In this document: piece after piece, positions 13,188 to 33,665 of the stretch
How positions within the stretch are numbered: the first letter of the stretch is position 1
Layout of the letters: each line of letters begins with the position of its first letter
Assembly (NCBI GenBank): GCA_008690995.1
Contig: VRMN01000006.1
Location: 620,001-684,000 of the forward strand
DNA length: 64,000 nucleotides
Reading direction: 5' to 3'
Source: Porphyridium purpureum
Taxonomy: Eukaryota
The notes under the pieces: model-generated
Told to the model about the DNA's origin: nothing
The model's database searches: none
The model's input: the letters and a program-made list of their open reading frames with translations, nothing else
Position numbers and translations under genes: made by a program

Positions 13188-16100
13188 TCAAGAGTCAGCC
13201 GAGCTCGCAAAGAGCTGCTGCATACGATCCGCGATGGCGATGGCGCTTTCGCGCGCCGAGTGCGCGTCTCTGTGTGAGTGATCAGAAGGGTTTCGTAGAG
13301 CATCAACCAACGATTCAATTGCGAGATGCGGTAGACAGACCACATCCCTTGCAGGGACGTCAGTACTCTCTCCATCCTTGGCTGTCCGTATAGCCAATTC
13401 TGCACGAGCTAAAAGCTCAAACACCAGCGGTACGGCAAGATCGGCACGCCCTGCGCCTACAAGCACTCGCAGGACCCTATTCAACTCGCCATCTGACCCA
13501 AAAAAGTCCGACTTTGCTGCGACATCGTCGGCACGCTTCCTGCTACTCTGCTCGCCTCCGGAAGCGGATCCCCACGCCGCGCGCTGAATAAGCCAAAAAG
13601 GAATTCGGCTCAGCTTGTCCTTCGGCAGCGCTGCTACAAGGAACTCCAGCGCTTCGGCATAGTACGAGCGCGATGCCGGCAGCATGGCGGCGGCGTCACG
13701 CCGCCACTCCTCGAGCTTACTCAGCAGCGTGCCAGAGTCACAAGCGGTTGTCGACAACGACGCGTAGCTGACGGAGAAGACGGTACTGTTGTTGCCTGTG
13801 CGGCACGCCTCACAGGTGACGCTGGCGCGCTGCACGCCCGACCCTGAACACACACCCAGTGCGAGCGCGTGCACAACAAAGCGCACGGTGCGATCGGAAT
13901 GATGCTGTACGGCACTGCGCGTTGCGAGCTCGATGGCGAGCCGAATGCATGCCGCGCAAGGCGCTACGATGTCGGGTGCCTCCTGTGTCGCCGAAGACGC
14001 GCTCAGCGCACAAACCGCCCACTCAACGGCACCGCGCTCTTCCTCCAGCAGCCCCAGATGCTCCAGGACGGAGCTGCAGGACAAAGCTGACGCTGAAGAA
14101 TGACTGCGGTTGTCAGCGAGCAACACTCGCCGCGCGAGTGTCGCAAAAGCCTTGCCATGGATCCTCATCCGATCCACATCCTCCAACAGACAGATGCGAA
14201 CAGGTGCGGTGCGATCCGCGCTCTGTCGCCGCTGCCGCTGAGTACGGCGATGAAGACCGAGGCTGTTCGTTCGCGCTTGCTGAGCTGCATTTCTTTGACC
14301 ATCATCGCGACCGCTCGCCTCAAGAGCAACTTCGTCTTGTTCCTGGTCGTCATCATCAAACGAAAAGCGAACGACGTTCGGTTCACGATGTTGGTCCTGG
14401 TGCTCGTCGACCATGTTGGTTTCTTCCTGAGTTTGGTGCAGGTGAGCAGTCCCGCTGTCGGCGCTCGCTGCGGTTGCACGACGCGAGGGGTGCAGGACGA
14501 ACGGCTCGTTGCCAAAGCGAAGTGCCGAGCACGCTGTGGTCAGGGCGGAAACATACGTGTCAACCAGCGTGATCAGGAAGAACGCTGCGTTAGCCTTCGT
14601 GGCCGTGGCAAAAAGGCCACTGGTCTCTGAGCGGCGGGCAGATTCGAGCGCAAGCAGGACTTTATCCGCAAGCTCCAGTGCAGCTTGGGCGGCACTTACC
14701 GCGTCGCCGCGGTACATTTCCCAGCCAATCCACTGCTCGTATGCGTTCAGCGTGTTATTGCTGCGGTTGTCGTCCCTACTGCTCTGGCCTTTGCCGCTGA
14801 ATCCACCGAGCTCGAGCTCACCCAGCCGCGCGCGCTTGGACAAGGCCCACGCAATCATGCGCGTCGCCGGGGCGTGCAAGTCCTTTTTCATGAGCGCACT
14901 CAACTGGGACTGGTCGGCTACCGCATTCACAAGAACAATAACTGCGTCCTGCAAGGCTGCCCTTTCCTCGTCGTACTGCGATCGCCGCTGCGCTCGCTCC
15001 TCCGAAGACCGCGCTCCCAGTGTCTCAGCAACGGCAATCGAGCTCGTCGAAGCTGGCATGAGCAGAACATCAAGCGCAGCAGACAGGTCGTTCATGTCAA
15101 GGAATCCCTGAAACGCAATGTTACGCATGGTCTCGAATGCGCGTCGTGAAAGGGAGCGAACCTGGACATCTTCCTCTGCGGTGGCCTCCACGTCCGTGTC
15201 GGTGCGCACGTACGTGTGATCCTGATGAAGCGCCGTCGTTGCAATGAGAGCGCATGCCTGCGATGCACCGTAAGCCTTCAAGGGCTCTAGAGTCCGAATC
15301 AGAAGGACTTTTGTACGAAACGCAATCGTTTGTGCCATGTCATTTTCGTACTCGAGTTGGCTTCCACAGGCACTCAGCATCGCCTCAAGTGCCGCAGAAT
15401 CTGCATCGCTCATCACGTCGCACTCACTCACCACCAAGCTCGCGTCAGTGCACAATTGAATGACACCTGAAGCGTCAACACGATGGCGATCTTCTTCATC
15501 CTCTTGCCATGCCTTGGGCGTGGTACCCTCAACGCGCAGTCGGAACATGTGCACACCGCTTAGCGCCGCCGCTACCTGTGATGCACACGGACATAGCTCA
15601 ACACTCATGCTCCCAAGTGCGGCCAGGGCTGAGTACTCGCCGTGCGCCAGCAAAAAGCCGAAAATCGCCGGCTGTGTGGGATCAAGTAAAAGCTCAAAAA
15701 CATCTCGCGCGGCGTCTATAAGCGACCATGCATGGGCACCACTACTATTCATGGCTCCGCCGCCAGCTCCTTCAAGCAAGATGAGCCGACTCGCCTCCAC
15801 GGCGACGTCACGTACACATGGAAGCTCCGGCGCATTCCACGACGCCAACATAGTCGCGCGCTGATGCTGCTGCTGCTCAAGCGAGAGATTGACGGTTGCC
15901 CGTGATAAGGCGCTTTCTGATGCTGCAGGAAATGGCGCTGAACTGAATGCAAGAAATTCAGACCTCCACTGCGCTGTCAAAAGTGCCTCTGACGGAAGGC
16001 TGCTGAGGAACAAACTCATGTTAAAGCTCAGAAAGGATTCAATCGTTGTCGCTTGGACCGCACTGGTAGTCTGGCGGCGGTGGAAGTGAAGTCGACACGC

Positions 16101-18590
16101 CGCTACCTGTAGTCCCGCATTACTGGCAAGGTGCATTGCGAGCCTCCCAAAGATTGCGTTTCCGCTACTGTAAGTGTCACTGTGAGCCATCAAGGAAAAG
16201 TCTGAAGAAGCAAAAGCCTCGGTTTCCTCTGCCGCCATTTCGCGCAGTACACCCATTGCACCGTCTCGGTGGACAATAATTGGAACTGAACGAAGCTCAT
16301 TGCCATTCGGACTCGCCGGCTCTGACGCTCCGCAATACATCGGGAATGACAACACGTCAAGCATGGCCGCGTCCATTTCTATCGACAGCTTGTCGGCACG
16401 CTTCAGGATTCTCTGCGCTGCATCTTCTGCCGATACGCCAGCGTCCATAAGCGTTTTCAACGCTTCGTCGGCCGCAGGTAAAAGCAGCGAATAAGGTAGT
16501 AATGGGCATGAACTCACATGCAACGCGAAAAACCGCTGCCACTCTTCCAGGCGATCAGGGCGGACTCGCAACGCTTTCGCTACCACAGCGTATGAGTATC
16601 TCCCCGGCACCAGTAACTTGAGAGCCATTGTGTTCCGCACGCCTATCTGTTTGTGATCGTGTTCCAAATTTCCGGGATGAGGTTCTGAAGACGAAATTCC
16701 CACAATCGCATTCAGGGCAGTTACACCGAGCAGTCTACAAACTTCGTCGATTGAATGATCAATTGCGGACCACACGGACTCTGTACTTAAATCGCGGTAT
16801 TCGTCGACGCGCGTCCACGCACGCAGTGGCACGGCAGGCCGAGCGGTGTCTGAGATACTGCCTTCCTCACCGCTGGTCCCACCATCAACCCCAAAGGAAA
16901 GAATCGTTCCGTCTGAAAGCGCAACAACTATACCCTGAGTATCGTCTAGAACGCATGCGCTTGCCAAGGGCTGCCGGAGCTGCGCATACGTAAATGAGCG
17001 CACCAATACGACTTCAAAGCTTGTGACCCTCCCTGAAATGCGCGGCCGTACGTTCAAAACCGACACACACAGCGAGCGCGGCTGTGACGATACACCCATC
17101 GATTTGCCGCGCTGGACATTTATCACCACAACGTCCCGACCGGGCCCGTCGCCTGCATCAGAACCACGTGTAACAGGCAAGCATTCCAGACGAATGAATT
17201 CTGGCGCATGGTGCGCACTGAATGAAGGATCCATTTGCTTGAAATCAATCTGCATCCCTGTATATGCGGCTGCCGTTGTCGCCGCTGGTGCCTCACTCTC
17301 GAGCGATTCATCGGAAAAACTGGACTCGGCGTCTGCTATGCCATCGTCCGCAGAAGATCGTAAGTTATGGCACGAGATGGTGCCATTGCGCCACAAAAAG
17401 AGACAAGAGTGGAAATTCAGAAGCACTGCGCCCAGTACATCGCACCCGGCCGAAGAAGGTCCCGCAGACTCGTCTGTGTCCAGCACGGGCTCGATACTAT
17501 CATATCCAGAAACGGATGCAACTGCGGTGCCTGCTTCAGCTCGTCGGTCGGTACGCGTACGTCCAGCAGCTTTTTCTTTGCGCCGGAAAAAGAAAGAGCT
17601 TAGAAGCGACGGGCGCGCTCTTGATTCCAGGTTTTGCTCCTCGGCGGGCCGCTTTTTGTCCCGCAAGCGTCCACGAAAGGCCTGACAAACCACCCGAGCA
17701 CGGACGGGCCCTTGATTGCCGTCTGCTGGTCCAAGACTTAAACACTCGCACTCACCGTCACGGTCAGCAAGGACAAACTGGAGCCGTTCGCGGGGACGCG
17801 ATTCGGAAGTAGCTGTGTCGATGTCCATCGCGTCTTGAGAAGGCACGTATGCCACAAGCTCAGAGAATAACGTCAGCTCACTCAAGTTCACCTCACCGGG
17901 CACCGCAACGTTTGACACGATCTGGACCGCGGACTCAACGTCGTTGGCCACCGCATCGATGTCGACGCGTAATACTGCAATAAACGGACATCTTGGCGGC
18001 TCTGCGGGACTCTCTGACGACTCTGCGTCATTCGATACGCCAGCGTGACCGGATTCAGCCTCAACAACATCATAGAGGATAGCCACCATGGCGACGTCCT
18101 TTTCAACGGACGACATCCAGACCACCGGCGTGTGGAATAATGTCCGAGGTAAGCCAAGTAGCACCTCTCTACGACGTTGCTCGCTGGCATTCCAGTTTTG
18201 GTCAAGGACTGGCCTCGTCCTCAGACTCAGTGCCACCCGATCGGAGTGTTCTTGTCGACGGTACCCGTCCCACCGACCTGGTGCGGCGCGCACACCTTCC
18301 AACCGCGCAATCACCAGCTGCGCATGCTCTACCGGCGCTACGCGAGGATGAAGCTCCATTCCCAACATCGCTGCGCGTGGTAACCTCACCACCTGAGGAA
18401 CGGGCGATCGCGCAAATCTCGGCGCACGGCTCGGCGCATCCAACCGGGCCGTGCCGGAACGGTGCTGCGAAAGTACATCCTGCACGTCGACGCTGCACGA
18501 GCGCGCTCGCGACCCTGCGAAGCCACCGTATCCGGAAGCCACATCAGTAGCTCCGAGCGGCCGCAGCAGCGTCTCTCGCAGCGGCATCAT
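13188..18590 (-). CDS. NUP160: Nucleoporin Nup160/Nup120-like (Y-complex) protein
   Basis: About 1800 aa with a beta-rich N-terminal half and a helical C-terminal half. YEQWIGWEMYRGDAVSAAQ, IPFWL..ELNRVLRVLV..DLAVPLVFELL and CLPHLAIESLVDAL resemble the Nup160 C-terminal blocks. Confidence 0.65.
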   Translation of the reverse strand: MMPLRETLLRPLGATDVASGYGGFAGSRARSCSVDVQDVLSQHRSGTARLDAPSRAPRFARSPVPQVVRLPRAAMLGMELHPRVAPVEHAQLVIARLEGVRAAPGRWDGYRRQEHSDRVALSLRTRPVLDQNWNASEQRRREVLLGLPRTLFHTPVVWMSSVEKDVAMVAILYDVVEAESGHAGVSNDAESSESPAEPPRCPFIAVLRVDIDAVANDVESAVQIVSNVAVPGEVNLSELTLFSELVAYVPSQDAMDIDTATSESRPRERLQFVLADRDGECECLSLGPADGNQGPVRARVVCQAFRGRLRDKKRPAEEQNLESRARPSLLSSFFFRRKEKAAGRTRTDRRAEAGTAVASVSGYDSIEPVLDTDESAGPSSAGCDVLGAVLLNFHSCLFLWRNGTISCHNLRSSADDGIADAESSFSDESLESEAPAATTAAAYTGMQIDFKQMDPSFSAHHAPEFIRLECLPVTRGSDAGDGPGRDVVVINVQRGKSMGVSSQPRSLCVSVLNVRPRISGRVTSFEVVLVRSFTYAQLRQPLASACVLDDTQGIVVALSDGTILSFGVDGGTSGEEGSISDTARPAVPLRAWTRVDEYRDLSTESVWSAIDHSIDEVCRLLGVTALNAIVGISSSEPHPGNLEHDHKQIGVRNTMALKLLVPGRYSYAVVAKALRVRPDRLEEWQRFFALHVSSCPLLPYSLLLPAADEALKTLMDAGVSAEDAAQRILKRADKLSIEMDAAMLDVLSFPMYCGASEPASPNGNELRSVPIIVHRDGAMGVLREMAAEETEAFASSDFSLMAHSDTYSSGNAIFGRLAMHLASNAGLQVAACRLHFHRRQTTSAVQATTIESFLSFNMSLFLSSLPSEALLTAQWRSEFLAFSSAPFPAASESALSRATVNLSLEQQQHQRATMLASWNAPELPCVRDVAVEASRLILLEGAGGGAMNSSGAHAWSLIDAARDVFELLLDPTQPAIFGFLLAHGEYSALAALGSMSVELCPCASQVAAALSGVHMFRLRVEGTTPKAWQEDEEDRHRVDASGVIQLCTDASLVVSECDVMSDADSAALEAMLSACGSQLEYENDMAQTIAFRTKVLLIRTLEPLKAYGASQACALIATTALHQDHTYVRTDTDVEATAEEDVQVRSLSRRAFETMRNIAFQGFLDMNDLSAALDVLLMPASTSSIAVAETLGARSSEERAQRRSQYDEERAALQDAVIVLVNAVADQSQLSALMKKDLHAPATRMIAWALSKRARLGELELGGFSGKGQSSRDDNRSNNTLNAYEQWIGWEMYRGDAVSAAQAALELADKVLLALESARRSETSGLFATATKANAAFFLITLVDTYVSALTTACSALRFGNEPFVLHPSRRATAASADSGTAHLHQTQEETNMVDEHQDQHREPNVVRFSFDDDDQEQDEVALEASGRDDGQRNAAQQARTNSLGLHRRTQRQRRQSADRTAPVRICLLEDVDRMRIHGKAFATLARRVLLADNRSHSSASALSCSSVLEHLGLLEEERGAVEWAVCALSASSATQEAPDIVAPCAACIRLAIELATRSAVQHHSDRTVRFVVHALALGVCSGSGVQRASVTCEACRTGNNSTVFSVSYASLSTTACDSGTLLSKLEEWRRDAAAMLPASRSYYAEALEFLVAALPKDKLSRIPFWLIQRAAWGSASGGEQSSRKRADDVAAKSDFFGSDGELNRVLRVLVGAGRADLAVPLVFELLARAELAIRTAKDGESTDVPARDVVCLPHLAIESLVDALRNPSDHSHRDAHSARESAIAIADRMQQLFASSADS

Positions 18591-18721: not shown

Positions 18722-20467
18722 ATGGAGCTTGGGATCTTTGATGAGCGATTCGATGAACAATTACTGCGTCTGCACGAGCAGGTGCAGCTCATGCAGGCCG
18801 CAGACGAGCGCGTTCGAAGTGTGCGGGCGACAGGAGCGACTGTGTCGTCGGCAATGAGGAGTTCTGGCGCCGGCCTGGACCATGATGTGTTTGCGGTGCA
18901 CGCGTGCCGGCGGAGCTTGCTGCAGAAAGATGAGACTCGGACCCTCGAGTGGCTCCGGATTTTGTACGGAACTAGGCCCCCCGTATCACGAAGTAGCTCG
19001 GCTGCGGCAACACGCGGACGCGCCCGCGCAAATCGCGCAAATTATGCGCGCACCGAGAGCGACGTTCGACAACAGCAGCAGCAGCAGCAGCAGCAGCTGC
19101 AGCTCGACGCTGTGGTTATGATTAATCCGCTGGCAGAGGTTGATATGCTGCGAGGAAAGTTTTGCATCAAAGTGCCACATTTGAGAATTCCTTGGGCTCG
19201 CGCGCTGGCCGAGGCATTGTGGAACCAGCTCAATGTCTCTCTGGAAAAGTACGACGTACCACGGCGCTTCGAGGGTCTGCTTGTAAGCGAGCCCTGCGTC
19301 ACGCTTGATCAGTGCCCGGCGACTGTCGGGTGCCTTTTATGCTCAATTTGTCCCCGCTGTGCAGCCCCAAACGCACAGAGCAGGCTGCACGACTGTGCGT
19401 GCTCATGCCCTCTGTACGAAGCCTTAAACATAGAGGCATTGGAGTACAATGCCGCTGTATTGCGCGGAATCACGCGCTCAAAAGGTCAGCTCCCAGCAAG
19501 TCGGCTCTGTGGAACGGTCAAGAGGCAGTTTCTGCGCGGCATTGCACGCCGGTGCACAATGGGCATGGCTTGCGCCCAAAATGAATACACCCGTTTCTCG
19601 ATGGAATACGACAAGCATCGCCGCGCCGTAGAGAATATCAAGACGACGTGCGAGCCCAGCATACTCCTTTTGTGCAGAAGGAAAGAAGTTCAAATCTCTT
19701 TCGATGACGCAAGCTTACTGGTACCTGGTGAAGAAAGCCCGAGTGACTTCACCGACTGTGTGTGCTCAGAATCATGCCGAAATTGGAAACCATCAAGCCA
19801 CACCTTGACGGTGTGTGCTGTGGACACAAGCGCAAACGCGTCAAGGCGGCCTTCACTTTACATCAAGGCGCAACTTTTGCCCCCAGCGGCGGCACCATCA
19901 AATGTGCTTCTCGGCGGCGGCGGTGCAAAGTGTCTCATCAACGGCTCGTTGCTGGACATGGATTGTCTCGATATTTTGCGTGGAATCCTGTACCGGCTTT
20001 TCCACATTGATGTGATGCTGGACAATACCGGTGCGATGGCAGGTCCGTCTTTGTCTGCCTCTCATTGCGCTGGCCGCTCCCTTAAAGTGGCCTACAACAG
20101 CGATGAGGTGGATTCATATCTCGAGTCGCGCTTCCTGCTTAGGTGGAGCCAGATGTTCCCTCTGGCGGCGGAGCTTGCAAAGATGCAGCGCGTGCTGGTG
20201 ATTCTAAAGGAACTCGAGCGGCACATCCAGCGCTACCAGCTGTGTCACCGCGAGATATCAAACTTGAACGAGGAACTGACACGGGCCGCAATCTATTATG
20301 AAAGGCTCAACGCAAGGAGTCTTCTGGAACTCGCAGCACTGGAAGTGGCGATACAGAGGCAGCCGAATGCAGACTTGTCCGACCTTGAGGGGCTGTTGCC
20401 ACCGGACGTCATTTCCGTCGTTCGTCAGAAGAGTGACATCTTGCAGGCAAGCAAGCTTGTTGCTTGA
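18722..20467 (+). CDS. Hypothetical protein with a polyQ tract, a Cys-rich middle and a C-terminal coiled coil
   Basis: 581-aa ATG-initiated ORF, divergent from the Nup160-like gene. Contains CLLCSICPRC..HDCACSC. No family recognised. Confidence 0.7.
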   Translation: MELGIFDERFDEQLLRLHEQVQLMQAADERVRSVRATGATVSSAMRSSGAGLDHDVFAVHACRRSLLQKDETRTLEWLRILYGTRPPVSRSSSAAATRGRARANRANYARTESDVRQQQQQQQQQLQLDAVVMINPLAEVDMLRGKFCIKVPHLRIPWARALAEALWNQLNVSLEKYDVPRRFEGLLVSEPCVTLDQCPATVGCLLCSICPRCAAPNAQSRLHDCACSCPLYEALNIEALEYNAAVLRGITRSKGQLPASRLCGTVKRQFLRGIARRCTMGMACAQNEYTRFSMEYDKHRRAVENIKTTCEPSILLLCRRKEVQISFDDASLLVPGEESPSDFTDCVCSESCRNWKPSSHTLTVCAVDTSANASRRPSLYIKAQLLPPAAAPSNVLLGGGGAKCLINGSLLDMDCLDILRGILYRLFHIDVMLDNTGAMAGPSLSASHCAGRSLKVAYNSDEVDSYLESRFLLRWSQMFPLAAELAKMQRVLVILKELERHIQRYQLCHREISNLNEELTRAAIYYERLNARSLLELAALEVAIQRQPNADLSDLEGLLPPDVISVVRQKSDILQASKLVA

Positions 20468-23253: not shown

Positions 23254-24828
23254 TCATCCGACGTTACCGCCGCTGCGACTGCTGCCGGTGGGAGCTTCAT
23301 GACGGCTCGAATCTTGCAAATTGAGCGGTAGTGGCAGGGGAGACGGCTGTTTTCGCGCTGGTGGTACCGCGTTGCCCGAATCAAGATACGTTGCCTGCTC
23401 AGCGAATCGCGCTGTATTCGCCGGCGGCGGCGAGGTGGTTCCCTTGTCTTCACCTCGAGCTGTCACAGGACGCTCAGGTTGCCGCTGTTGCGGTGGCGAC
23501 TGCGGCCGAAGCAGACGCGGCGATCCTTCCTTGCTGAGCACGTTCAGGATTTGAAGCTCTACCGGTGTATCCGAGCTGTGGGACAGCGAACTCATATTCT
23601 CGTCGTCGCCGAGAGTAACATAGTCAAACGACATCAAGCCGGTGTCTGGCTTTTGCATGGTAGGCTTGGGCTGGCTCGCATCGGAGTGCTTGGTCCACGT
23701 GCGCTCCTCCACTACGTCGTGGCACACGCAGGTACAGTCATCACTGTCGCAGGTACCGCACAGGCACGATACGTCCTGCTCGCGGCTTGGCGGCCGGCCT
23801 AGCTTGCTTGCGTCCGATCCCGCGCGCCCAAACACAAATTCTAGCATGTCGCCCAAGTGGTCGCAAACCCACACCTCGACTACGCCGAGTTTGCGCTTCT
23901 CGCCGCGGTTTCGCTTCCGGCGTACAAGCTGCGCAGTGTGGTGCAAGTACAGCAGCATGGCGCCGAAGAAGAGCACGCCAGATGTCACTGCGGTCAGAAT
24001 AAACGACCAGCTATAATTCACCACCAGCACACCGTCGCGCCATGGAATCATCAGCGGGTTCTTGATGCGGTTCACGACTGAAGAATAAATAATCACAGCG
24101 CTCGCCATCAGCGCGGCCACCAGCATGAGCAACAGGGCCCCCACACGGGGCCGAAACGCGCCAAACAACACCGACAAAAAGTACACACCTAATCCCGTAT
24201 ACATCATGATGTGCGTATAGTATCCAGCGTAGCGGTAGTAGCGCAGCCACCGAATCTGCTCGCCGTCAATCGTAAAGTACTCTGCAATCTGCAGGATGGG
24301 GAGCGGCATCCCGCCAAATTGTGCGCGGCGCCACGTGCGCGCGACTGTGTTCCCCAGATCAGAAAACCCCACGCGCCCCTGGAACCATACGTTCCCGCGG
24401 CCCCACAAAAATTGCTCGTTATAGTTGATACGCTGTCCGAGCTGGTACTCGGGCTCGCCTAACATGGTAACGTTAAAGCCGCGCAGGCCAATCTTGATAC
24501 CGAGCGTCACCTCGACCTCGTGCGAGTCGTACCCCGCATACGGCGTGCGCGTCTGCACTTCGCCGTACTGCCAGTTGTAGGCAAAATTACAGAAGAGCAG
24601 CGTGAACATGATGTACACGCCGAAGAGCAGGCCAACCGTCTTGCGCACCGCGTCCGCCTTGCTTTCGAATGAAAAGATGGTGAACAAGCCTGCAATCGCA
24701 ATGGTTGCGCTTGCGACCGCCGCGCTAATCATCCACAAATCCAGACCTACTGCTGTCTTGTTTGGCCCATAGTAGGTAGGCCCGACGCCATCGCCGGGCA
24801 GTGTCTGCGGGACACATGTGTCCGCCAT
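23254..24828 (-). CDS. DUOXA: Dual oxidase maturation factor (DUOXA/NIP family) with a long C-terminal extension
   Basis: 5-TM pattern. LGIKIGLRGFNVTMLG, INYNEQFLW, GMPLPILQIAEYFTIDGEQIRWLRYYRYAGYYTH and YSWSFIL are hallmark DUOXA blocks. Confidence 0.92.
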   Translation of the reverse strand: MADTCVPQTLPGDGVGPTYYGPNKTAVGLDLWMISAAVASATIAIAGLFTIFSFESKADAVRKTVGLLFGVYIMFTLLFCNFAYNWQYGEVQTRTPYAGYDSHEVEVTLGIKIGLRGFNVTMLGEPEYQLGQRINYNEQFLWGRGNVWFQGRVGFSDLGNTVARTWRRAQFGGMPLPILQIAEYFTIDGEQIRWLRYYRYAGYYTHIMMYTGLGVYFLSVLFGAFRPRVGALLLMLVAALMASAVIIYSSVVNRIKNPLMIPWRDGVLVVNYSWSFILTAVTSGVLFFGAMLLYLHHTAQLVRRKRNRGEKRKLGVVEVWVCDHLGDMLEFVFGRAGSDASKLGRPPSREQDVSCLCGTCDSDDCTCVCHDVVEERTWTKHSDASQPKPTMQKPDTGLMSFDYVTLGDDENMSSLSHSSDTPVELQILNVLSKEGSPRLLRPQSPPQQRQPERPVTARGEDKGTTSPPPANTARFAEQATYLDSGNAVPPARKQPSPLPLPLNLQDSSRHEAPTGSSRSGGNVG

Positions 24829-25831
24829 CTAGCGCTCAACCCGGGCCGGTCGCCACAAGGTTTCCGCTGGCCTCACCCAATGCGCACGCCTCTCTTTGTC
24901 CAAAGTATCACACTCTCGCTCTTTTCAAACCTCGTTCTTCACGTACACACTTTGCTGCTTCGCTACGTCCTGATGTCCGCTACTGTGCGTAACCCCCCTT
25001 ACCGTGCTTAAGAGCCAACCCTCGCGAAAGCCCGCCGGCGGTCGGAGTGGAAAAGGAAAACCACCTCTGCACGCCCGCTACCGCACGCAGAATCGTCGCA
25101 CCGTTTCTCCCTCTCCCTCTCACGTGCACCGGGCCCACTAGCACTGACCCCGACGGACTGCTTTGAGGTGCACCGCGCGCGCACCCGCTCTCCACCAAAA
25201 TCCACTCGCGTCCGTGCGACACGCGTGCGTCTTCCACTCCACCCACCTCAACTTACACCGCTGCGCTTGCTCTCTGCCACGCTCGAGTGCCACACATATC
25301 CACGACCACGTCTTTACCACACGCGCGCATCCAGCCCTCCAGCGTTGCTACTGCCTCGTTCTCTTTCCCTTCATCGCTCGTTCGCTGTTCCCGCTTCCCG
25401 CGTCCCGCTTCCCTCTTCCCTCTTCCCGCGTGTTATTTTTGCCTGCTTGCTCAAACGTGCTGGCACGCCCACCGCGCTCCACCTATCCTTTGGCGCTCAT
25501 CCGCCTCAAATCTTACGCGGTCACGTCACGCCCTTTGAGCCTTCCCTCCGTTCCGCGCAGCGTGTCCGTGATCGTGTTCGTTCCCCCGTTCTCGCACCGC
25601 TCCGCTTGTTCCACGCCACATTCCCTTATCGGGATCGTCTTTTTCCATAGCCACAAATCCAACCCATCCCATTTAGTCACAACCCCCTCAAGTCAATTAA
25701 TTCACTTCATCGTTATTCCCCCGTCCCCCAAAATTCACATCGTTTCGTCACCCGACAGTCGCCCGCAAATGCATGATGCATGTGCCATGTGTATCATTGA
25801 AAGCTTACTCTAAATCAAACGCATCTTATGC

Positions 25832-25921
25832 ATGCCATGCATGCCATGCATGCCATGCATGCCATGCGTGCCATGTATGCCATGTATGCCATGTATGCCA
25901 TGTATGCCATGCATGTTATGC
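25832..25921. repeat. 9-bp tandem repeat (ATGCCATGY) x10
   Basis: Read directly: atgccatgc x4, gtgccatgt, atgccatgt x3, atgccatgc, atgttatgc. Confidence 0.95.
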
Positions 25922-26873
25922 ATGGTGTGTGTCCTTGAGCGTGAGCGTGTCTGGTTTGGGGGTGTCTTGCACACACGCGCGCTATTTTCGACACTGGTGC
26001 TTGATCCATCACCGCCACGCCGGATGGTGCTGGAAGCGGACAATAAGGTTGTGTGTGTGTGTGTGTGTTTTTCAGCGTGCGAACACTCAAAATAGATCGG
26101 TCTCGACGGCTTGTTCTTGCCCTTCTTGGGGTTTTTAGAGCGAAGAAAATACGAAGGCGGGTGTGTTTTGCTACGGAGCGGTCTATGTAAGCCTGTTGAA
26201 GAGGCGTGTTGGTCGTGGCAGATCTTCAGCGGATCGCCAAAACGCGCGTGTGCGGCAACGCGCTATTCCTTCGTTGATTGTCGTTGGTCCGTGTGGGTCG
26301 ACTTGATTTGTGGCTTGTTTTGAGGGTCGTGGTGGTGAACGTGGCGTGACGGTTGTGATGCGCCATGCCTCGCGTTCGGCGGTGTGTGTGTGTGTGTGTG
26401 TGCAAGTGCGTGCGAGCGCGGCAACGACGGCTTTTAGAGTGCACAAGTGCGCGGGTAAAGGTGGGCGCGGGAGACAGACGGCGGAGAGACGGAGAGAGGG
26501 GGAGGGAGGGAGAGAGAGGGAGAGAATCTGTGCTGTGTGATCGGTGTGGCGTGTCGCTCACTGAGTTATCGTGTCGAGCGTGAATGCTCGGCGTGCAGGC
26601 GGGGTGAGTTCGCAGTGGGGCGTTTGGGTTTGGCGACCGCGCAGCTGGGAAGGGAGAGAGCAAGGGCGTGTGCGCGAGCGAGAGTGCATGATATTGTCTC
26701 GCGCAGAGTTGATTGGGGGACGTGCACGTTCTCGTTAGACGCGAAGTGTGTGTGCGAGGTGTGGAGGGGGCTGGATTGGCAGGAAAGGTTGAGATTGCCG
26801 GCGCAGGGCGTGCCACGCGTTTCGGCATTGCGTGCGCGCGGTGGCACTGTATGGCAGCTGAGCGCGTGCCCAC

Positions 26874-29800
26874 ATGGACGCCTATTTCCGCGTGACGCTG
26901 CCGCGCAGTGCGGCCGGCGGCGTCAAGGATATTGACGATGAGGGCGTGTACCGAGACGAGGAGTTTGAGGAAGCCCAGTTCTTGGACCATGTCGAGCAAG
27001 GAACGCTCCGGGCGGTCTTGACGCAGCAGCGCATCAAGAAGCGCTTCTCAGCGGGCGGCGTGTTTGTGATCACGCTGCTGCTGATGGTCTCGATGCTGGG
27101 ACCCATGCTCCTCGTGCATACATCAATGTCCACGTCGCGCAAGCGCATGCACAGCTCCCATCTGACTGCGAAGCGCCTGTTGGCAACGCATAACAACAGC
27201 AGTCACGTGATGCGCAACGCGATGCTCGCGCGCCAGGGCGGTGGCCCCGAGACGAGCAACATTGAATGGACGCCTTGGGATGGCGCGTACAACAACATAG
27301 CTCACCCTGAGTACGGCGTCGTGGATGCCCGCATCACGCGCCCGTGTCTTCCACGCTACTCGGACGGCGCGTACCAACTGTCCAACCCAGACGGTCCGAA
27401 CCCGCGCACCGTGTCCGAGCTCGTGATGGGCGGCGACACGGGCCACGGCTCGCTCACGAACAAGACCGCGTTTCTCGTCTTTTTTGGGCAGCAGGTGGTC
27501 GAGGAAATTCTGGACGGGCAGGCTTTCCAGTCGGCTGAGCCCTACGTCAACATCCCCGTTCCGGCGTGTGACCCCTTGTACGACCCGGACTGTAAGGGGA
27601 ATTTGTTTATCCCGCTGCCGCGCAATCGCTACGACTTGAGTACGGGCAACGCGCCCGGCGTGCCGCGTGCGCAGCTCAACGAAATCAGTGCTTGGATCGA
27701 TGGCACGCTATTTTACGGACCGTTCAAAGCGTGGGCTGACACACTGCGCGCGCACGACGAGTCGCGACCGGGCCGCTTCGCGTGCTTGGTTGACGAGAAA
27801 TCAGGCGCAGAAAACTGCAATCTTCCGGCACTGAACACGATTGGTCTACCGATTGTGAATCCGCCGCCACCCACGCTGCGTGACGTGCGCTCCGCCGAGC
27901 GCTTTTTCCGGCTGGGAAACCCGCGCACCAACGAAAATCCCATGCTCCTGTCGTTTGCCGTGCTGTGGTTCCGCTACCACAATGTTGTGGCCGACCGTAT
28001 TCACGGACAGTATCCCGAGTACGATGATGAAGAGGTGTTTTTACTGGCGCGCCAGTGGCTCATCGCCGTGTACCAGAAGATTGTCTTTTACGACTGGCTC
28101 CCCGGATTTCTGGGGCTTAATCGGGATGAATTTATGGAGGAGTATCGCTACCGCGGGTATCGATCAGTCGATCCAGCCATTACACAAGAGTTCCAAGTCG
28201 CAGCGATGCGGTTCGGCCACACACTGGTGACGCCCGGAGCGTACCGACGTGACCTACACTCGTGCACCGCGGGTTCGTTCGAATCACTGCGTACGTGCAA
28301 CTCTTACTTCCGCGGCGAAGAAGTGCTGCTAGAAGACGACGGCCCCACGCGAATGCTGCTTGGACTGGCGTCTCAGCTTGCGGAGCGCGAGGACTCGACA
28401 ATCACTCCAGATTTGCGCGGCTTTGTGTTTGGCGTCGCGCTCGACGCTACGCGCCGCGACCTCATGGCCATTAACATCCAGCGTGCGCGCGAGCACGGCG
28501 TGGGTACGTACAACCAGGTGCGCGAATGCTTCGGTCTCCCGCGCGTGGAATCGTTTGACGACATTTCTTCACTCACGGAGAATGAGCTGTTCAACACTTG
28601 CACCGACGCGCAGGGCAATACAGGCGTAAACTGCATGAAGCTTGCCATTGAAGGCCTAAAGACGGCGTACGATAACGACATTGAAAAGTGCGACTTGTGG
28701 CCGTGCGGGCTGCTCGAGGTGAACGTGACGGGCCCGGGCCCGCTATTCCGCGCGATTCTCCTTGACCAGTTTCTCCGCATTCGCGATGGCGACCGCTTCT
28801 GGTTTGAAAATGACAAAGCCGAAGCGCCCATCAAGAAGATCATGACTCCGGCTCAGATCGACGAGATCTGGAACACGACCATTCGCGACGTGATGGTGGA
28901 GGCGCTGGAGCTGGATGACGATGTAGTGCTGCAGGAAAACCCGTTCAAGTATGATTCGTCGGTATGCGAACAGCCCTATCAGCTCAGCGAGTTTAATCTT
29001 GAGGACTGCTCGGCACCGTCGACGTACAACTGGTACCGTGGGAACGTGCCGCGCCGCGCCGCCCCGGCAATGTCGTCGAGTCGGCTGGGTCAGGAAGGAT
29101 GTGAACCGGACTCGCTGCGAAAAATTTTGTTCGGGTCGGAAGATGGGCCCGAGCATGATGACCGCCTGACTTTGGCTTCGCAAGACGATCAGTTGTCCAT
29201 GGAGCAGCGCGCTGCCGCGGCGGGCTGTCCCGTGTATAAGGCGAAAACAAAGCTCGCTCGACTTTTAATCATGCAGCAAGTGATGATGGAGCGCGTGAAG
29301 ACAGGCCTTGTGAAGCTCTCACCCAATGCAGGCTCGGTGCAGCGCTACGTAAATTATCTCAGCACAGATGAGTGCGGTTTCATCACGAACGCTGACTCGC
29401 TCGCGCAGCTGGCGTGGACCATCGCCGGCATCGTGATGTGGCTGATTCTGAACATGGTGCTGGTATACGGCATCGTTCACTGGATCCGACATCGCAAGCA
29501 ACTGCGCACTGCCGGCGGCCTTGCATTCAGCAAGAGTACCAAGCATATCCCGCTGGACATTGAGACAAATGTGAGTGCGCGAGCGTCATTGCGCGTCCAG
29601 GCTGCGTCTGCGAAAAGCATGTCGCGAGGCAAGCCACGACCCACCACGGGGTATGGATGCCTAATTTATCATTCCTTCACGGAGAACTCTAGCTTGAACG
29701 GCGTATCTGTGCAGCTGGGTGAGCCGGACCAGGCGCATTTGTTCTTGTTCGGGACTGACGGAATCGACCGAGGCAGCCTGGAGGACGGGCCACCGACCAG

Positions 29801-32800
29801 CAGTTTCAAGACTGGAAAAGACGTAGGCATGGGCGCGCGCACCAAGACTGAGCGCGCCTCGTGTGTGCCGCTAGAAGTCCGTGAGATTCTTAGCGGCGAC
29901 ATAACGATGATTTCGCCCGGCAACATTGAGGAGTTGCGATTGTTTGACAACTTCATCATGATCAAGTGCAAGATTGGCTCTGCTCGACTTTTTGAGTTTG
30001 AGTCGCCGGGCAAGGCGCGCACGGTAGCTCGAGAGTTGCTCAGTATCAAGGGCCTCAAGGCGCAGGAGGCAAACATGGCGACCTTGGAAGAGCTCGTTGA
30101 GGACTGCATGTCGCGGGCCGAGCGGCTAGATGAAATCAATTGGTTCTTCGAGAAGGTGAAGCGCGATATCCGAATCAAGTGCGAGCAGGATGCGAGCTAC
30201 AAGCGTACCCGCTCGGTCGCGGACGCCGCGAAAGACATCGCGGACAACCAGAGCCCCGACGAAATCCTTGCGGATAACCCAGATCTTGTGCACGATACCG
30301 TACACAAGGTCGCTGACTATAACATGTCGAAGCTCGTGTGGTACACAAACGAAGAACTTAAAAGCGACAGCATTCTCGGGGCCGAGCGCTACGGTGAGCC
30401 AAATTCAATGGGCTCGCCGAGGGAGTTCGCAGGCGCGGCAGCTGCGAGTCCACATCGAAACAAGGGCAAGCGAAGCACGCCCTCCTCACCGCGCCTGACT
30501 GCGGGTGGGTTTATTTCGCGACGTGCGGTTGCCAACGCGCTGAGTGGCGGGCTGTCGAAGAAGGGTGGCGTCACGGGGACGCGTTCGAAGTCCAAATGGG
30601 GCAGGTCCCAAGGACAGCACGGGTCAGAAAGTTCGCAGTTTTGGCGCAACCATTCTCGCCCGGATTACGCTGATGAGGACGATGTTGTTTTCACAAAGCA
30701 TGAGGTTGCAGCGGTGCTCCGCATCCACCCGTCGTCGTTTGTGTTATCGCGCATGTTCTACGAAGGCTCTCACACATTCAGCACGATCATTACGGCACGC
30801 CAGTTCCGCAGGGCTGTAGAAAATTTGGTGCTCGCTGGAGAGTCGCCTGGTCGCTTTTTGGCTGGACTTGCCATTGCACCAGGCGGGAACGATGAAATCG
30901 ACAAGGAATTGTTGATGGATATCGTGCGCGATCTGCAGGGCTCCGGGCTTGGGGCAGGAGGGATGTCCCTGGATGGCGACCAGACGGACGTTTTGGCGGT
31001 GCCGATGAGCCGTGTGGACGAGAAGATAATCTCCAAGTACATGAACGAGACGGACTCCCCAACTCTACCAATGGAACGCTTCGACAAGATGATTGAAGAA
31101 ATGCAGGAGAAGAAGTTGAAGTATCGCGCCGTGGGATGGCAAATGTACTTTAGGCAGACGAGACGGCGTGCGCAAGAAGACATGGCACGCGAAAACATGT
31201 CGAATGTCTCAGTCAAGCTGTACTCCTGGCGCGACAGCTTTGTGGATGTTTGCAAGGACCATCGGCTGGACATCTTCTGGGGTACAGCGTATGTGATCAC
31301 CGTGGCGCTCATCTTTTTGTACACATGGTGGTACTACTACTCGCTCCGGGAAGTGTACGGTTTGCGTGGAATTTTGACAGTTGGACTGTGCGTCACGCGG
31401 TCGTCGGCGTCGGTTGACATGTTTGTGTACAGTATCACGCTGTTGCCCATGTGCCGAAATCTGATTACATTTCTTCGCAGTACACGGCTGCATCAGTACG
31501 TGCCTTTTGATCGAGCATACGAATTTCATGTGATCACCGCGCTCACAGGCGAGTTCTTCACGGCGTTGCACGTCGTGGGACACTGTGTGAACTTTTACAA
31601 CATCACCACGCAGCGTTCAGGCGACTTGACCGGATACTTCCGCGCCGTCAACTGGAACTCAGACTTTGTGCCATCATTTGCATTTTGGATGTACGAGACG
31701 ATTACCGGCATGACGGGCCTCTTGCTTACGTTTGTAATTATCACCATGATGGTTTTCGCGGTCCCTCAGGTACGCTCCGCAAGCTTCCAGTTGTTCTGGG
31801 TGATACACCATGTGTGCTTCACCTTGCTATACACCATGATCGTGCTGCACGGCTCGTACGTTCTCGTGCAGAGGCCCATCTTCCATTTCTTTTTGCTGGG
31901 CCCGCTCATTATCTTCATTTTGGACAAGCTCTATACGTTTGCGCGGGAATCTGAGAAGCTTCAGATTGTGGATATGAAGTTACTGCCCAAAGGCGTGACG
32001 GCCATCTACGTCCGTGTCAGTCCGAGCTTTTCGTACACTTCGGGTCAGTGGGCGCGTCTCAAGCTTCCGGCTCTCGGTACGACTGAGTTCCATCCCATGA
32101 CGATCTCATCCGCGCCGCATGAGAGCTATTTATCCTTCCACGTTGCGGCGGTGGGTCCGTGGACGCGTGCAGTGCGCGAGCTGGCAACCGAGACGCAGGG
32201 CAAGCCCTTGTCACAGATGCCTACGATCCGCATCGATGGCCCGTATGGAGAGGGCCACCAAAACTGGATGCTGTACGACACAGTGCTGCTAGTGGGCGGC
32301 GGGATTGGCTGCACACCATTCGTGTCGGTGCTCAAGGATATCCTGCACCAAGTGCGGATCAAGGCTTTCCGCACCACCAAAGTCGTTGCAGTGTTCATTT
32401 GCAAGAATCTTCAGGACCTTGCGTGGATCACAAATGAGGTGAGCCAGCTCGAGAATAACGCACCAGCCGGATACCTGGAGCTTCTTTTCTTCCAGACCGG
32501 TCAGAAGCGCAGTGGCAAGGAGTCTTCTCTCGATGCGCAGAACTTGGCATTCGAGCAGGCGTTTCAGCGCCACGTCGAGTTCATTTCCCAGATCATGGCC
32601 AATCGCTCGTCGCTTGCGCGTGTCAAAGGTTTTGTGCTGGACGGTCGACCGCAATTTGACGAGTTGCTCCGGGACATCCAGGCGGACCGCAAGGCGAACG
32701 ACGAAATTTTAGAGTCTGGTTCGGGAGCGAGGCAAACTTCAGAGCTTGAGGTTGGCGTCTTTGCGTGCGGTAGTGCCTCCATGACGCTCGACCTCAAGCG

Positions 32801-33665
32801 CGCATGTGTGCGGCGCAATCGCGAGACCTTGCGCGAGATTGCCGACAAGGAGCTCAGTGCCGCGCGCGCTGGAAAAGGCTCGCACAGCTCTGCGGGGGAA
32901 GAAGTCGAAATGTCTATGGACTCGGTGGGAGGGACGCCAAAGCCGACCGGGCTGGGTGGTGTGTCAGGTAATGTCGATCCGAAAATGTCCACCAAGCCGA
33001 ACGGCATGTCTCCTGGCCCACGCGGTGAGCTCACGACATCAGGTAGGTCGAACGGCTTGGGTGCGTCGTCTAAAAGTGCCGAGCTTGCGGCATCGGGCCG
33101 TTCGGACGGATTTGGGCGAGCGGGTGCTGGTGCTAGAGGCCCGAGCGATCCTGCACCGGAGATCAATCCGTTGGGCACTGACCGCGTCTGCACGTCAACG
33201 TCTGGAGCAAGTATGGCCACGAGTCCCACCGCAGGTCCTGCAGGAAAAAGGCGCGCCTCGCAGATTTCCCTGGGGCGCATGTCTGGCATCGAAGGAAGCC
33301 GAGACGTGCAGGGCCAGACCGGAGCGACCGCAGAGGTCAGCGGCTCAGCGCGCCAGAGCTCGACGCGTATGATGTCCAAGATGGCGTCGATGGACACGCA
33401 AGTATTCAAGGACGTGGCCGCGAAAATCACAAGCCGCAAGCCAAAGCGCGTACGCGGAGAGCGACCTGTGTTCTTTGCGTTCTATGGTCAAGTGTTTTCG
33501 TCGGACTCGTCGTTTGACTTTTGGTCGAGGTGGAAGAAAGGGTGGGCGGAGCGGCGTGCGGCCAAGGCGGCCGCGCGCGCCGCCGCGCTCAAGACGGGTG
33601 TTTCCAGGACCAGCAGCACGGAGGACACTGAGCTGGACCTCCCCGAAGCGCTGCGCGAGGCGTGA
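26874..33665 (+). CDS. DUOX: Dual oxidase (heme-peroxidase-like ectodomain, TM, degenerate EF-hand region, ferric-reductase TM domain, FAD/NADPH-binding domain)
   Basis: DGAYNNIAHPEYG, FFGQQVVEEI, WIDGTLFYG, GNPRTNENP, AAMRFGHTLV, INIQRAREHG, QFLRIRDGDRFWFEN. Also LLPMCRNLIT, heme His pairs FHVI..LHVVGH and FWVIHH..LHGS, HPMTISSAP, DGPYGEGHQNW, GGGIGCTPF, VGVFACG. Confidence 0.95.
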   Translation: MDAYFRVTLPRSAAGGVKDIDDEGVYRDEEFEEAQFLDHVEQGTLRAVLTQQRIKKRFSAGGVFVITLLLMVSMLGPMLLVHTSMSTSRKRMHSSHLTAKRLLATHNNSSHVMRNAMLARQGGGPETSNIEWTPWDGAYNNIAHPEYGVVDARITRPCLPRYSDGAYQLSNPDGPNPRTVSELVMGGDTGHGSLTNKTAFLVFFGQQVVEEILDGQAFQSAEPYVNIPVPACDPLYDPDCKGNLFIPLPRNRYDLSTGNAPGVPRAQLNEISAWIDGTLFYGPFKAWADTLRAHDESRPGRFACLVDEKSGAENCNLPALNTIGLPIVNPPPPTLRDVRSAERFFRLGNPRTNENPMLLSFAVLWFRYHNVVADRIHGQYPEYDDEEVFLLARQWLIAVYQKIVFYDWLPGFLGLNRDEFMEEYRYRGYRSVDPAITQEFQVAAMRFGHTLVTPGAYRRDLHSCTAGSFESLRTCNSYFRGEEVLLEDDGPTRMLLGLASQLAEREDSTITPDLRGFVFGVALDATRRDLMAINIQRAREHGVGTYNQVRECFGLPRVESFDDISSLTENELFNTCTDAQGNTGVNCMKLAIEGLKTAYDNDIEKCDLWPCGLLEVNVTGPGPLFRAILLDQFLRIRDGDRFWFENDKAEAPIKKIMTPAQIDEIWNTTIRDVMVEALELDDDVVLQENPFKYDSSVCEQPYQLSEFNLEDCSAPSTYNWYRGNVPRRAAPAMSSSRLGQEGCEPDSLRKILFGSEDGPEHDDRLTLASQDDQLSMEQRAAAAGCPVYKAKTKLARLLIMQQVMMERVKTGLVKLSPNAGSVQRYVNYLSTDECGFITNADSLAQLAWTIAGIVMWLILNMVLVYGIVHWIRHRKQLRTAGGLAFSKSTKHIPLDIETNVSARASLRVQAASAKSMSRGKPRPTTGYGCLIYHSFTENSSLNGVSVQLGEPDQAHLFLFGTDGIDRGSLEDGPPTSSFKTGKDVGMGARTKTERASCVPLEVREILSGDITMISPGNIEELRLFDNFIMIKCKIGSARLFEFESPGKARTVARELLSIKGLKAQEANMATLEELVEDCMSRAERLDEINWFFEKVKRDIRIKCEQDASYKRTRSVADAAKDIADNQSPDEILADNPDLVHDTVHKVADYNMSKLVWYTNEELKSDSILGAERYGEPNSMGSPREFAGAAAASPHRNKGKRSTPSSPRLTAGGFISRRAVANALSGGLSKKGGVTGTRSKSKWGRSQGQHGSESSQFWRNHSRPDYADEDDVVFTKHEVAAVLRIHPSSFVLSRMFYEGSHTFSTIITARQFRRAVENLVLAGESPGRFLAGLAIAPGGNDEIDKELLMDIVRDLQGSGLGAGGMSLDGDQTDVLAVPMSRVDEKIISKYMNETDSPTLPMERFDKMIEEMQEKKLKYRAVGWQMYFRQTRRRAQEDMARENMSNVSVKLYSWRDSFVDVCKDHRLDIFWGTAYVITVALIFLYTWWYYYSLREVYGLRGILTVGLCVTRSSASVDMFVYSITLLPMCRNLITFLRSTRLHQYVPFDRAYEFHVITALTGEFFTALHVVGHCVNFYNITTQRSGDLTGYFRAVNWNSDFVPSFAFWMYETITGMTGLLLTFVIITMMVFAVPQVRSASFQLFWVIHHVCFTLLYTMIVLHGSYVLVQRPIFHFFLLGPLIIFILDKLYTFARESEKLQIVDMKLLPKGVTAIYVRVSPSFSYTSGQWARLKLPALGTTEFHPMTISSAPHESYLSFHVAAVGPWTRAVRELATETQGKPLSQMPTIRIDGPYGEGHQNWMLYDTVLLVGGGIGCTPFVSVLKDILHQVRIKAFRTTKVVAVFICKNLQDLAWITNEVSQLENNAPAGYLELLFFQTGQKRSGKESSLDAQNLAFEQAFQRHVEFISQIMANRSSLARVKGFVLDGRPQFDELLRDIQADRKANDEILESGSGARQTSELEVGVFACGSASMTLDLKRACVRRNRETLREIADKELSAARAGKGSHSSAGEEVEMSMDSVGGTPKPTGLGGVSGNVDPKMSTKPNGMSPGPRGELTTSGRSNGLGASSKSAELAASGRSDGFGRAGAGARGPSDPAPEINPLGTDRVCTSTSGASMATSPTAGPAGKRRASQISLGRMSGIEGSRDVQGQTGATAEVSGSARQSSTRMMSKMASMDTQVFKDVAAKITSRKPKRVRGERPVFFAFYGQVFSSDSSFDFWSRWKKGWAERRAAKAAARAAALKTGVSRTSSTEDTELDLPEALREA

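What the first reader, a model, noticed from the sequence alone, without database searches (positions are those of the whole stretch)
23254..33665. Head-to-head DUOX + DUOXA pair in an apparently non-animal (red-alga-like) genome
Seen in sequence: a 2263-aa dual oxidase and a 524-aa DUOXA are divergently transcribed with about 2 kb between start codons, and both are intronless. Established knowledge: DUOX/DUOXA form an H2O2-generating complex characterised in animals (thyroid hormone synthesis, mucosal defence, nematode cuticle cross-linking), and vertebrate DUOX/DUOXA genes lie head-to-head around a bidirectional promoter. Land plants use RBOH enzymes, which lack a peroxidase domain. Inference: the flanking genes and permuted tRNA look algal. 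This would then be a complete co-regulated DUOX system outside Metazoa, either ancient with conserved linkage or transferred as a unit, possibly acting in extracellular ROS production or matrix cross-linking. I cannot verify whether it has been reported.
Basis: partly seen in the sequence, partly recalled or inferred. Interest (0 to 1): 0.92.

Follow-up and report, generated by a model that had tools for sequence, protein, structure and literature searches.

The report
Red algal DUOX–DUOXA gene pair
A Porphyridium-type red alga carries, back to back, a dual oxidase gene and its maturation-factor gene, a pair usually described only in animals, and the algal enzyme lacks the usual calcium-binding residues, so it likely makes hydrogen peroxide at the cell surface without a calcium switch and the pairing is likely far older than animals.

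Summary
An intronless 2263-aa DUOX (26874-33665, +) and a 524-aa DUOXA (23254-24828, -) diverge with 2045 bp between start codons. The closest relatives are Porphyridium purpureum proteins with consecutive accessions on one scaffold, so the pair is likely adjacent there too. DUOX and DUOXA of the fungus Gonapodya also have consecutive accessions, and a second red-algal class (Compsopogon) has DUOXA. Trees place both algal proteins outside Metazoa. Contamination and transfer from an animal are unlikely. Ancient inheritance versus exchange with a choanoflagellate-like protist is unresolved. The oxidase core is intact (four heme His, oxygen site, most FAD/NADPH contacts). The enzyme is a variant: both EF-hand loops have lost their calcium ligands, the PHD-TMD disulfide is gone, and it likely has an extra N-terminal membrane anchor. 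Best reading: a DUOXA-chaperoned, likely calcium-independent surface H2O2 generator; activity is untested. The P. purpureum proteins are auto-named in GenBank, but ten paper searches turned up no description, and the surveys I read treat DUOX as metazoan. Verdict: new variant of a known kind, interest 0.66.

The parts
23254..24828 (-). DUOXA (dual oxidase maturation factor), 524 aa: 5 TM helices, claudin-like domain, conserved N119 glycosylation site, Cys cluster at 355-369 in the cytosolic tail
   Evidence: Pfam DuoxA E 5e-52; human DUOXA1 E 1.5e-20; 5 hydrophobic segments; Atlas model TM 0.84 to a DUOXA cluster; N119 in 70 of 70 aligned rows; 86% to P. purpureum KAA8490679.1 over residues 1-305
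24829..26873 (.). 2045-bp spacer between the start codons, holding both 5' UTRs and the presumed shared promoter; contains a 9-bp tandem repeat at 25828-25924 and GA/GT repeats
   Evidence: Sequence; tandem repeats; longest of the 7 divergent gaps measured, the others being 131-990 bp. Promoter function not tested.
26874..33665 (+). DUOX variant, 2263 aa, single ORF
   Evidence: 68% overall to P. purpureum KAA8490680.1; covered by single 7.1-7.2 kb contigs in 3 of 4 RNA-type runs
26874..27128 (+). Conserved 60-aa N-terminal segment plus a hydrophobic helix (aa 63-81); likely an uncleaved signal anchor in place of the usual signal peptide (inferred)
   Evidence: Hydropathy; aa 1-60 are 65% identical to P. 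purpureum against 19% for aa 86-128
27258..29039 (+). Peroxidase-homology domain (aa 129-722): Q206, R351, E354 and proximal H449 kept; distal His replaced by E210; first ester Asp replaced by V209
   Evidence: motif definitions from PMC4420034
30681..30938 (+). Degenerate EF-hand module (about aa 1270-1355): helix-loop-helix fold predicted, calcium ligands lost
   Evidence: Alignment register; no match to an EF pattern that 115 of the other 118 hits match; model aligns to human DUOX1 from residue 794; 71% identical between the two algae against 15-26% for the large insertions
31206..33497 (+). NOX core: TM domain with H1552, H1566, H1645, H1659 and oxygen-site R1509/H1570; dehydrogenase domain whose last strand (aa 2203-2208) follows a low-complexity insertion of about 205 aa
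   Evidence: residue roles from PMC7794343; best fold match 7d3f_A, E 1.2e-37, Z 26.5

Best explanation
This is a native, adjacent DUOX-DUOXA gene pair of a Porphyridium-type red alga whose products likely form a plasma-membrane complex that is predicted to make extracellular hydrogen peroxide without calcium activation. Shown: identity of both genes, divergent adjacency, an intact heme and oxygen site, loss of the EF calcium ligands, and placement outside Metazoa. Inferred from the animal complex: DUOXA escorts DUOX out of the ER and stays bound; electrons pass from cytosolic NADPH through FAD and two hemes to O2 outside. The EF module is likely kept as a fixed scaffold against the dehydrogenase domain, so output would be set by expression, NADPH supply or phosphorylation of the Ser/Arg-rich insertions. 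The peroxidase domain may bind heme but lacks the distal His, as in most DUOX hits, and is likely a poor peroxidase. The most likely use is oxidative defence or modification of the mucilage capsule at the cell surface (inferred; the capsule is recalled knowledge). On origin I slightly favour an ancient pre-animal pair kept patchily (about 0.5) over transfer from a protist (about 0.4).
For: Family identity. Native to the genome: GC3 0.704 for both genes and codon fit inside the range of 17 neighbours; 20 of 24 listed runs from 8 studies hold at least half the words, 3 of them flagged as possible sources; contigs in 3 of 4 RNA-type runs run from DUOXA into its left neighbour. Linkage elsewhere: P. 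purpureum KAA8490679.1/80.1, both scf243_20; Gonapodya KXS19340.1/41.1 with the same longest contig and consecutive EukProt numbers. Catalysis: the 4 heme His, R1509, H1570 and R1634 are identical in 58 of 58 other rows; R1535, R1691, D1788 and R1925 are kept. Calcium loss: EF1 positions 1, 3, 6, 12 read S, T, T, Q; no register of EF2 is canonical; human ligands listed. Outside animals: Metazoa form a clade without the algae at 98/97 (PHD), 99/97 (core) and 99/98 (DUOXA clade with the 2 named animal rows); algae plus Metazoa rejected, AU p 0.026. Age: Compsopogon DUOXA is the next-best hit among 393 and groups with Porphyridium at 91/45.
Against: No activity, localisation or binding was measured. 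Departures from the DUOX consensus could change the chemistry: HPFT Phe to Met/Ile, CGP to CGS/CAS, the terminal Asn (human N1550) lost, both disulfide Cys lost (kept in 50 of 50 and 57 of 58 other rows), and a long insertion before the last strand. The EF fold in the model may be biased by canonical EF-hands in its alignment; a single-sequence model failed (pLDDT 36). Adjacency in P. purpureum and Gonapodya rests on accession order, orientation there is unknown, and the P. purpureum POR and EukProt numbers are not consecutive. The PHD tree joins the algae with choanoflagellates at 100/99 and rejects the species-tree split (p 0.001), which argues against plain vertical descent. No Compsopogon DUOX was identified. 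Red-algal monophyly of DUOXA has weak SH-aLRT support (45).
Confidence: 0.7

Rival explanations
1. Same biochemistry, but the linked pair came as a cassette from a choanoflagellate-like or other protist into an ancestor of Porphyridium and Compsopogon, then lost calcium control.
For: The PHD tree groups the algae, unnamed P0073 and Salpingoeca at 100/99; the core tree does so at 86/84; the species-tree split is rejected for the PHD (p 0.001). Signature motifs are shared almost only by these rows. No other named red alga appeared among the 120 and 98 listed DUOX hits. Physical linkage makes co-transfer easy (inference).
Against: The rooted core tree does not reject opisthokont monophyly without the algae (p 0.26). 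The DUOXA link between red algae and choanoflagellates (SH-aLRT 94 under LG+G) disappears under the mixture model. The algal branches are long. The direction could be the reverse: the abstract of PMC4046809 reports 405 genes likely from algae and prokaryotes in Monosiga.
Confidence: 0.4
2. The DUOX has been repurposed as a surface metal reductase or other electron exporter, or makes superoxide only, and no longer acts as an H2O2 generator.
For: Loss of the EF ligands and the PHD-TMD disulfide, and changes in FAD/NADPH motifs.
Against: Oxygen-site R1509 and H1570 are kept. The PHD and TMD are each 87% identical between the two algae. DUOXA is retained beside it with the N-terminal Tyr and N119.
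Confidence: 0.15
3. Transfer of the pair from an animal.
For: Most top hits are animals, up to 48% identical over the peroxidase region.
Against: The algae fall outside the animal clade in all DUOX trees and in the DUOXA trees; AU p 0.026.
Confidence: 0.04
4. Contaminant or chimeric assembly.
For: No whole genome is held for the window; a DNA-read check across the locus is missing; flanking genes were typed by Pfam only.
Against: Orthologues sit on one scaffold in an independent P. purpureum assembly; codon use matches the neighbours; the stretch is held by runs of 8 studies; contigs bridge DUOXA and its neighbour.
Confidence: 0.02

Closest known systems
Animal DUOX1/2-DUOXA1/2 complex (human 7D3E/7D3F, mouse 6WXR; head-to-head gene pairs)
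   Same: Domain order PHD, TM0, cytosolic loop, 6-TM heme domain, dehydrogenase; heme and oxygen-site residues; 5-TM DUOXA with the N109-equivalent glycan site; divergent adjacent genes (PMC2871058 passages).
   Different: EF calcium ligands lost; C118-C1165 disulfide lost; likely N-terminal signal anchor; three large insertions and a C-terminal tail; proximal heme His kept in the PHD (lost in human); Cys cluster in the DUOXA tail; photosynthetic unicellular host.
Porphyridium purpureum KAA8490680.1 and KAA8490679.1 (GenBank names: Dual oxidase; Dual oxidase maturation factor 1)
   Same: Orthologues with the same degenerate EF loops, N-terminal anchor and Cys cluster; consecutive accessions on scf243_20.
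   Different: 68% (DUOX) and 65% (DUOXA) overall identity, so the window is a different Porphyridium-type lineage; database names only, no description found.
DUOX/DUOXA of choanoflagellates (Salpingoeca) and early fungi (Gonapodya, Chytridiales JEL 0842)
   Same: Same PHD motifs; non-animal hosts; the Gonapodya pair has consecutive accessions.
   Different: They keep at least one canonical EF loop and, where checked (S. rosetta, Gonapodya), the disulfide Cys pair.
Red-algal RBOH/NoxC-D enzymes
   Same: NOX core without a calcium-binding EF-hand (PMC9322803 and PMC9524095 passages).
   Different: Those lack a peroxidase domain and DUOXA and have four extra TM helices in the dehydrogenase region; this protein belongs to the DUOX clade.

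Membership tests
DUOX (canonical, calcium-activated) | N-terminal peroxidase-homology domain (PF03098) | tested here: met
   E 1.5e-117, aa 135-682
DUOX (canonical, calcium-activated) | Extra TM helix (M0) after the PHD | tested here: met
   Hydrophobic segment aa 850-868, aligned with M0 of other DUOX
DUOX (canonical, calcium-activated) | PH-like domain in loop 0 | tested here: inconclusive
   Own HMM from 24 loop-0 sequences: both algal loops outscore 102 shuffled or reversed controls, but weakly (14.5 and 5.9 bits against at most 4.0); no Pfam hit
DUOX (canonical, calcium-activated) | Two EF-hands with calcium ligands at loop positions 1, 3, 5, 12 | tested here: not met
   Ligands replaced in both algae; the fold appears kept. 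It is therefore filed as a variant, not a canonical member.
DUOX (canonical, calcium-activated) | Six-TM domain with four heme His and the oxygen site | tested here: met
   H1552, H1566, H1645, H1659, R1509, H1570
DUOX (canonical, calcium-activated) | FAD and NADPH dehydrogenase domain | tested here: met
   PF08022 and PF08030 above cut-off; fold match; some motif substitutions
DUOX (canonical, calcium-activated) | PHD-TMD disulfide (human C118-C1165) | tested here: not met
   S220 and G1587 in the window protein; P and G in P. purpureum
DUOX (canonical, calcium-activated) | Cleavable signal peptide | tested here: inconclusive
   The first hydrophobic helix is at aa 63-81, behind a conserved 60-aa segment; no signal-peptide predictor was available
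DUOX (canonical, calcium-activated) | H2O2 production that depends on DUOXA | not testable with these tools
   Needs an assay
DUOX clade (by descent) | Branches with DUOX to the exclusion of NOX5 and RBOH | tested here: met
   100/99 in the 30-row core tree
DUOXA (PF10204) | DuoxA profile, five TM helices, claudin-like domain | tested here: met
DUOXA (PF10204) | Glycosylation site equivalent to human N109, and N-terminal peptide Tyr | tested here: met
   N119 in 70 of 70 rows, Y20 in 60 of 70; roles
DUOX/DUOXA operon-like pair | Head-to-head adjacency | tested here: met
DUOX/DUOXA operon-like pair | Shared bidirectional promoter and co-expression | not testable with these tools
   Only contigs were available; they cannot give start sites or levels
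Active peroxidase-cyclooxygenase peroxidase | Distal GQxxDHD motif with catalytic His and ester Asp | tested here: not met
   V209 and E210, as in 51 of 51 and 49 of 50 other rows with a residue
Red-algal NoxC/D (RBOH-like) | No peroxidase domain; four extra TM helices in the dehydrogenase region | tested here: not met
   PHD present; no hydrophobic peak after aa 1682

The most novel reading that the evidence does not exclude
DUOX and DUOXA were already a linked two-gene unit in an ancestor shared by animals, fungi and red algae, making this one of the oldest operon-like gene pairs in eukaryotes, and Porphyridium has turned it into a natural calcium-free, constitutively poised DUOX.
Probability: 0.35. 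Interest if true: 0.85.

Novelty: new variant of a known kind. Interest (0 to 1): 0.66.

Why it matters
Recent surveys treat DUOX as an animal clade and tie the DUOXA partnership to animals and fungi needing finer control (PMC9421330, PMC9524095, PMC7730656 passages). The linkage itself was, as I recall from Grasberger and Refetoff 2006 (not read here), dated to before echinoderms. A complete adjacent pair in a red alga, with apparent adjacency in an early fungus, moves both the complex and the linkage much deeper, or documents transfer of a two-gene module between eukaryotes. The algal enzyme is also a natural test of how DUOX is switched on: it keeps the EF scaffold but not the calcium ligands. 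Porphyridium is easy to grow (recalled), so the role of DUOX in a single cell can be tested directly.

Tried and rejected
Whole-genome search: none is held for this window. A check with DNA runs across the locus is missing, so continuity between DUOXA and DUOX rests on word shares and on the P. purpureum orthologues. The bin 25661-26311 has almost no cover in all 4 RNA-type runs; this fits an untranscribed promoter core, but repeats lie there and no DNA run was laid, so I do not use it as evidence. Contig depth was not used to rank expression. The single-sequence fold of the cytosolic loop was useless (pLDDT 36). A scan of viral contigs for a DUOX carrier found none among 256 pattern matches, and a scan of prokaryote genomes none among 39; both used narrow patterns. 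A metagenome scan with P0133 found nothing; the alignment scan gave 4 short loci, none with a DUOXA match. The grouping of red-algal and choanoflagellate DUOXA was dropped because it vanished under the mixture model. Divergent orientation alone was rejected as evidence of co-regulation. Earlier scan findings: nothing. Three papers were not held, among them my two tries for the 2013 P. purpureum genome paper, so a mention there or in its supplements cannot be excluded. Rows left out of trees: 4 partial PHDs; 18 of 48 rows for the careful core tree; 28 of 159 short DUOXA rows; 42 of 131 rows chosen.
Full report
Observation. The + ORF has the peroxidase, ferric reductase, FAD and NAD domains above Pfam cut-offs and no EF-hand family; the - ORF is DuoxA at E 5e-52. 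The best solved relatives are DUOX1 and DUOXA1. In 4 RNA or probable-RNA runs, contigs cover both genes with no joints and no variant letters; three runs cover nearly all of DUOX in one contig of 7.1-7.2 kb. The tool cautions that such contigs do not prove transcription or give levels. Divergent orientation is ordinary here (7 of 18 pairs among 19 genes I picked). Adjacency of two given genes by chance is about 2 in the gene count, roughly 2e-4 for 8,000-10,000 genes (count recalled).

Whose genome. The nearest proteins are P. purpureum DUOXA (86% over aa 1-305) and DUOX (80% over aa 125-900; 68% overall). The window is therefore a Porphyridium-type red alga but not that reference. Both genes have GC3 0.704 and codon fit within the range of 17 neighbours. 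A permuted tRNA-Thr(UGU) lies at 41279-41372; such genes are known from the red alga Cyanidioschyzon (recalled). Twenty of 24 listed runs, from 8 studies, hold at least half the words of the stretch; three may be the source. I did not obtain named relatives of RPS3 or MCM3, and no DNA run was laid.

Linkage elsewhere. P. purpureum DUOXA and DUOX are KAA8490679.1 and KAA8490680.1, both labelled scf243_20 with the same 165,934-bp contig. Gonapodya prolifera DUOX and DUOXA are KXS19340.1 and KXS19341.1, with the same 808,289-bp contig and consecutive EukProt numbers. Consecutive accessions usually mean neighbours (general knowledge); orientation is not given, and the POR and EukProt numbers of the P. 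purpureum pair are not consecutive.

Distribution. Named non-animal DUOX among the 120 listed hits: P. purpureum, Salpingoeca rosetta, S. infusionum, Chytridiales JEL 0842 and Gonapodya. The exhaustive DUOXA search gave 393 hits and listed 150; after P. purpureum (86%) the next is 38%, and it is from the red alga Compsopogon caeruleus. Of the 10 hits looked up in that call, 3 had species names (Compsopogon, S. infusionum, Gonapodya). An unnamed JGI fragment, P0133, is the closest core relative (482 bits against at most 384 for single animal matches) and has no name.

Trees. PHD (35 rows, 615 columns, mixture model): Metazoa 98/97 without the algae; algae plus P0073 plus choanoflagellates 100/99. 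The split expected from the species tree is rejected (p 0.001), and so is algae plus Metazoa (p 0.026); both tests were set up after I had seen the trees, and the algal branch is long. NOX core rooted on NOX5/RBOH (30 rows): Metazoa 99/97; algae plus P0133 100/100; with choanoflagellates and P0073 86/84; opisthokont monophyly is not rejected (p 0.26). DUOXA (42 of 131 rows): a clade with the 2 named animal rows at 99/98, red algae together at 91/45, and an open base of many unnamed lineages. An animal donor is therefore unlikely, while ancient inheritance, protist-to-alga transfer and alga-to-choanoflagellate transfer all remain open. The abstract of PMC4046809 reports 405 Monosiga genes likely from algae and prokaryotes.

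Anatomy. Against the human residue list (PMC7794343, passages and one part of section 3), the four heme His, the oxygen-site Arg and His and R1214 are identical in all 58 other rows; R1113, R1270, D1367 and R1495 equivalents are kept; R1131 is Val and R1424 is Lys. The PHD keeps both cation sites in main and the proximal His, but has Glu for the distal His like 49 of 50 other rows. Four features are special. First, EF loops: 115 of the other 118 hits match a recalled EF pattern, and the two algae do not. In register, EF1 has S, T, T, Q at positions 1, 3, 6, 12, and no EF2 register is canonical. The region is still 71% identical between the algae against 15-26% for the large insertions. The model (mean pLDDT 80.7) aligns to 7d3f_A from residue 794 (Z 26.5, rmsd 5.3, 592 aligned), and an alignment-free feature search lists EF-hand-bearing clusters at 0.89-0.90, a lead only. 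Second, both disulfide Cys are lost together. Third, a conserved 60-aa segment precedes the first hydrophobic helix, suggesting an uncleaved anchor. Fourth, an insertion of about 205 aa sits before the last dehydrogenase strand, with a tail after it. DUOXA keeps N119 and Y20 and adds a Cys cluster seen in only the 2 Porphyridium proteins of 177 sequences scanned.

Mechanism. By analogy with the animal complex (inferred), DUOXA brings DUOX to the surface and stays bound, and electrons move from NADPH through FAD and two hemes to O2, giving H2O2. With no calcium ligands, the EF module likely acts as a fixed brace and control moves to expression, NADPH supply or modification of the insertions. 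The likely use is surface defence or oxidative modification of the capsule. None of this is measured. A shift to metal reduction or superoxide-only output has about 0.15.

Literature. Porphyridium plus DUOX: 0 papers. Porphyridium plus dual oxidase: 1, where the term occurs only in the reference list (passages). Dual oxidase plus DUOXA plus red alga: 3 listed; I read passages of one (PMC2871058), and it does not describe the pair. PMC9421330 (passages, supplements searched) lists DUOX as a metazoan clade and has no Porphyridium, Rhodophyta or Salpingoeca entry. PMC9524095 (passages) places non-metazoan NOX in three other groups. PMC7730656 (passages) finds DUOX almost only in animals. [quoted passage not shown] PMC3591440, PMC8327215 and PMC13527155 (passages) add nothing on this. 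Searches were otherwise seen as listings only.

Verdict. Real, native and apparently undescribed as a system: a DUOX orthologue by descent that fails the calcium-EF test for a canonical DUOX, paired with a true DUOXA. New variant of a known kind; interest 0.66.

Noticed in passing
window 41279-41372 (+): Circularly permuted tRNA-Thr(UGU): the 3' half precedes the 5' half with a 22-base spacer, junction at positions 37/38. ARAGORN recognises it only after the halves are put in order.
   Followed up: yes
window 23722-23766 (-), DUOXA aa 355-369: Cluster of six Cys followed by a His in the cytosolic tail, conserved in both Porphyridium proteins and absent from the other 175 DUOXA sequences scanned; a possible metal or redox site.
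   Followed up: partly
window 27024-27057, runs X15 and X19: Loose ends translate by eye to the P. purpureum-type DUOX N-terminus, so two Porphyridium types appear to be mixed in these libraries.
   Followed up: partly
P0008, P0009 (unnamed JGI proteins): Protist-like DUOXA proteins; P0009 carries a C-terminal PF00567 domain (Tudor, name recalled) and P0008 has a similar tail.
   Followed up: no
P0073/P0234, L002, L003: Canonical DUOX with two intact-looking EF loops from an unnamed eukaryote; sister to the algal PHD at 95/81. Its taxon would help decide the origin question.
   Followed up: partly
L001:176-5337: Chytrid-like DUOX with introns on a 36% GC metagenome contig, closest to Gonapodya among the 9 queries tried.
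   Followed up: partly
window 25828-25924: 9-bp tandem repeat, 10.8 copies, nearly self-complementary, in the middle of the spacer between the genes.
   Followed up: no
window 13188-18590 (-) and 18722-20467 (+): ORFs of 1800 aa and 581 aa with no Pfam match.
   Followed up: no
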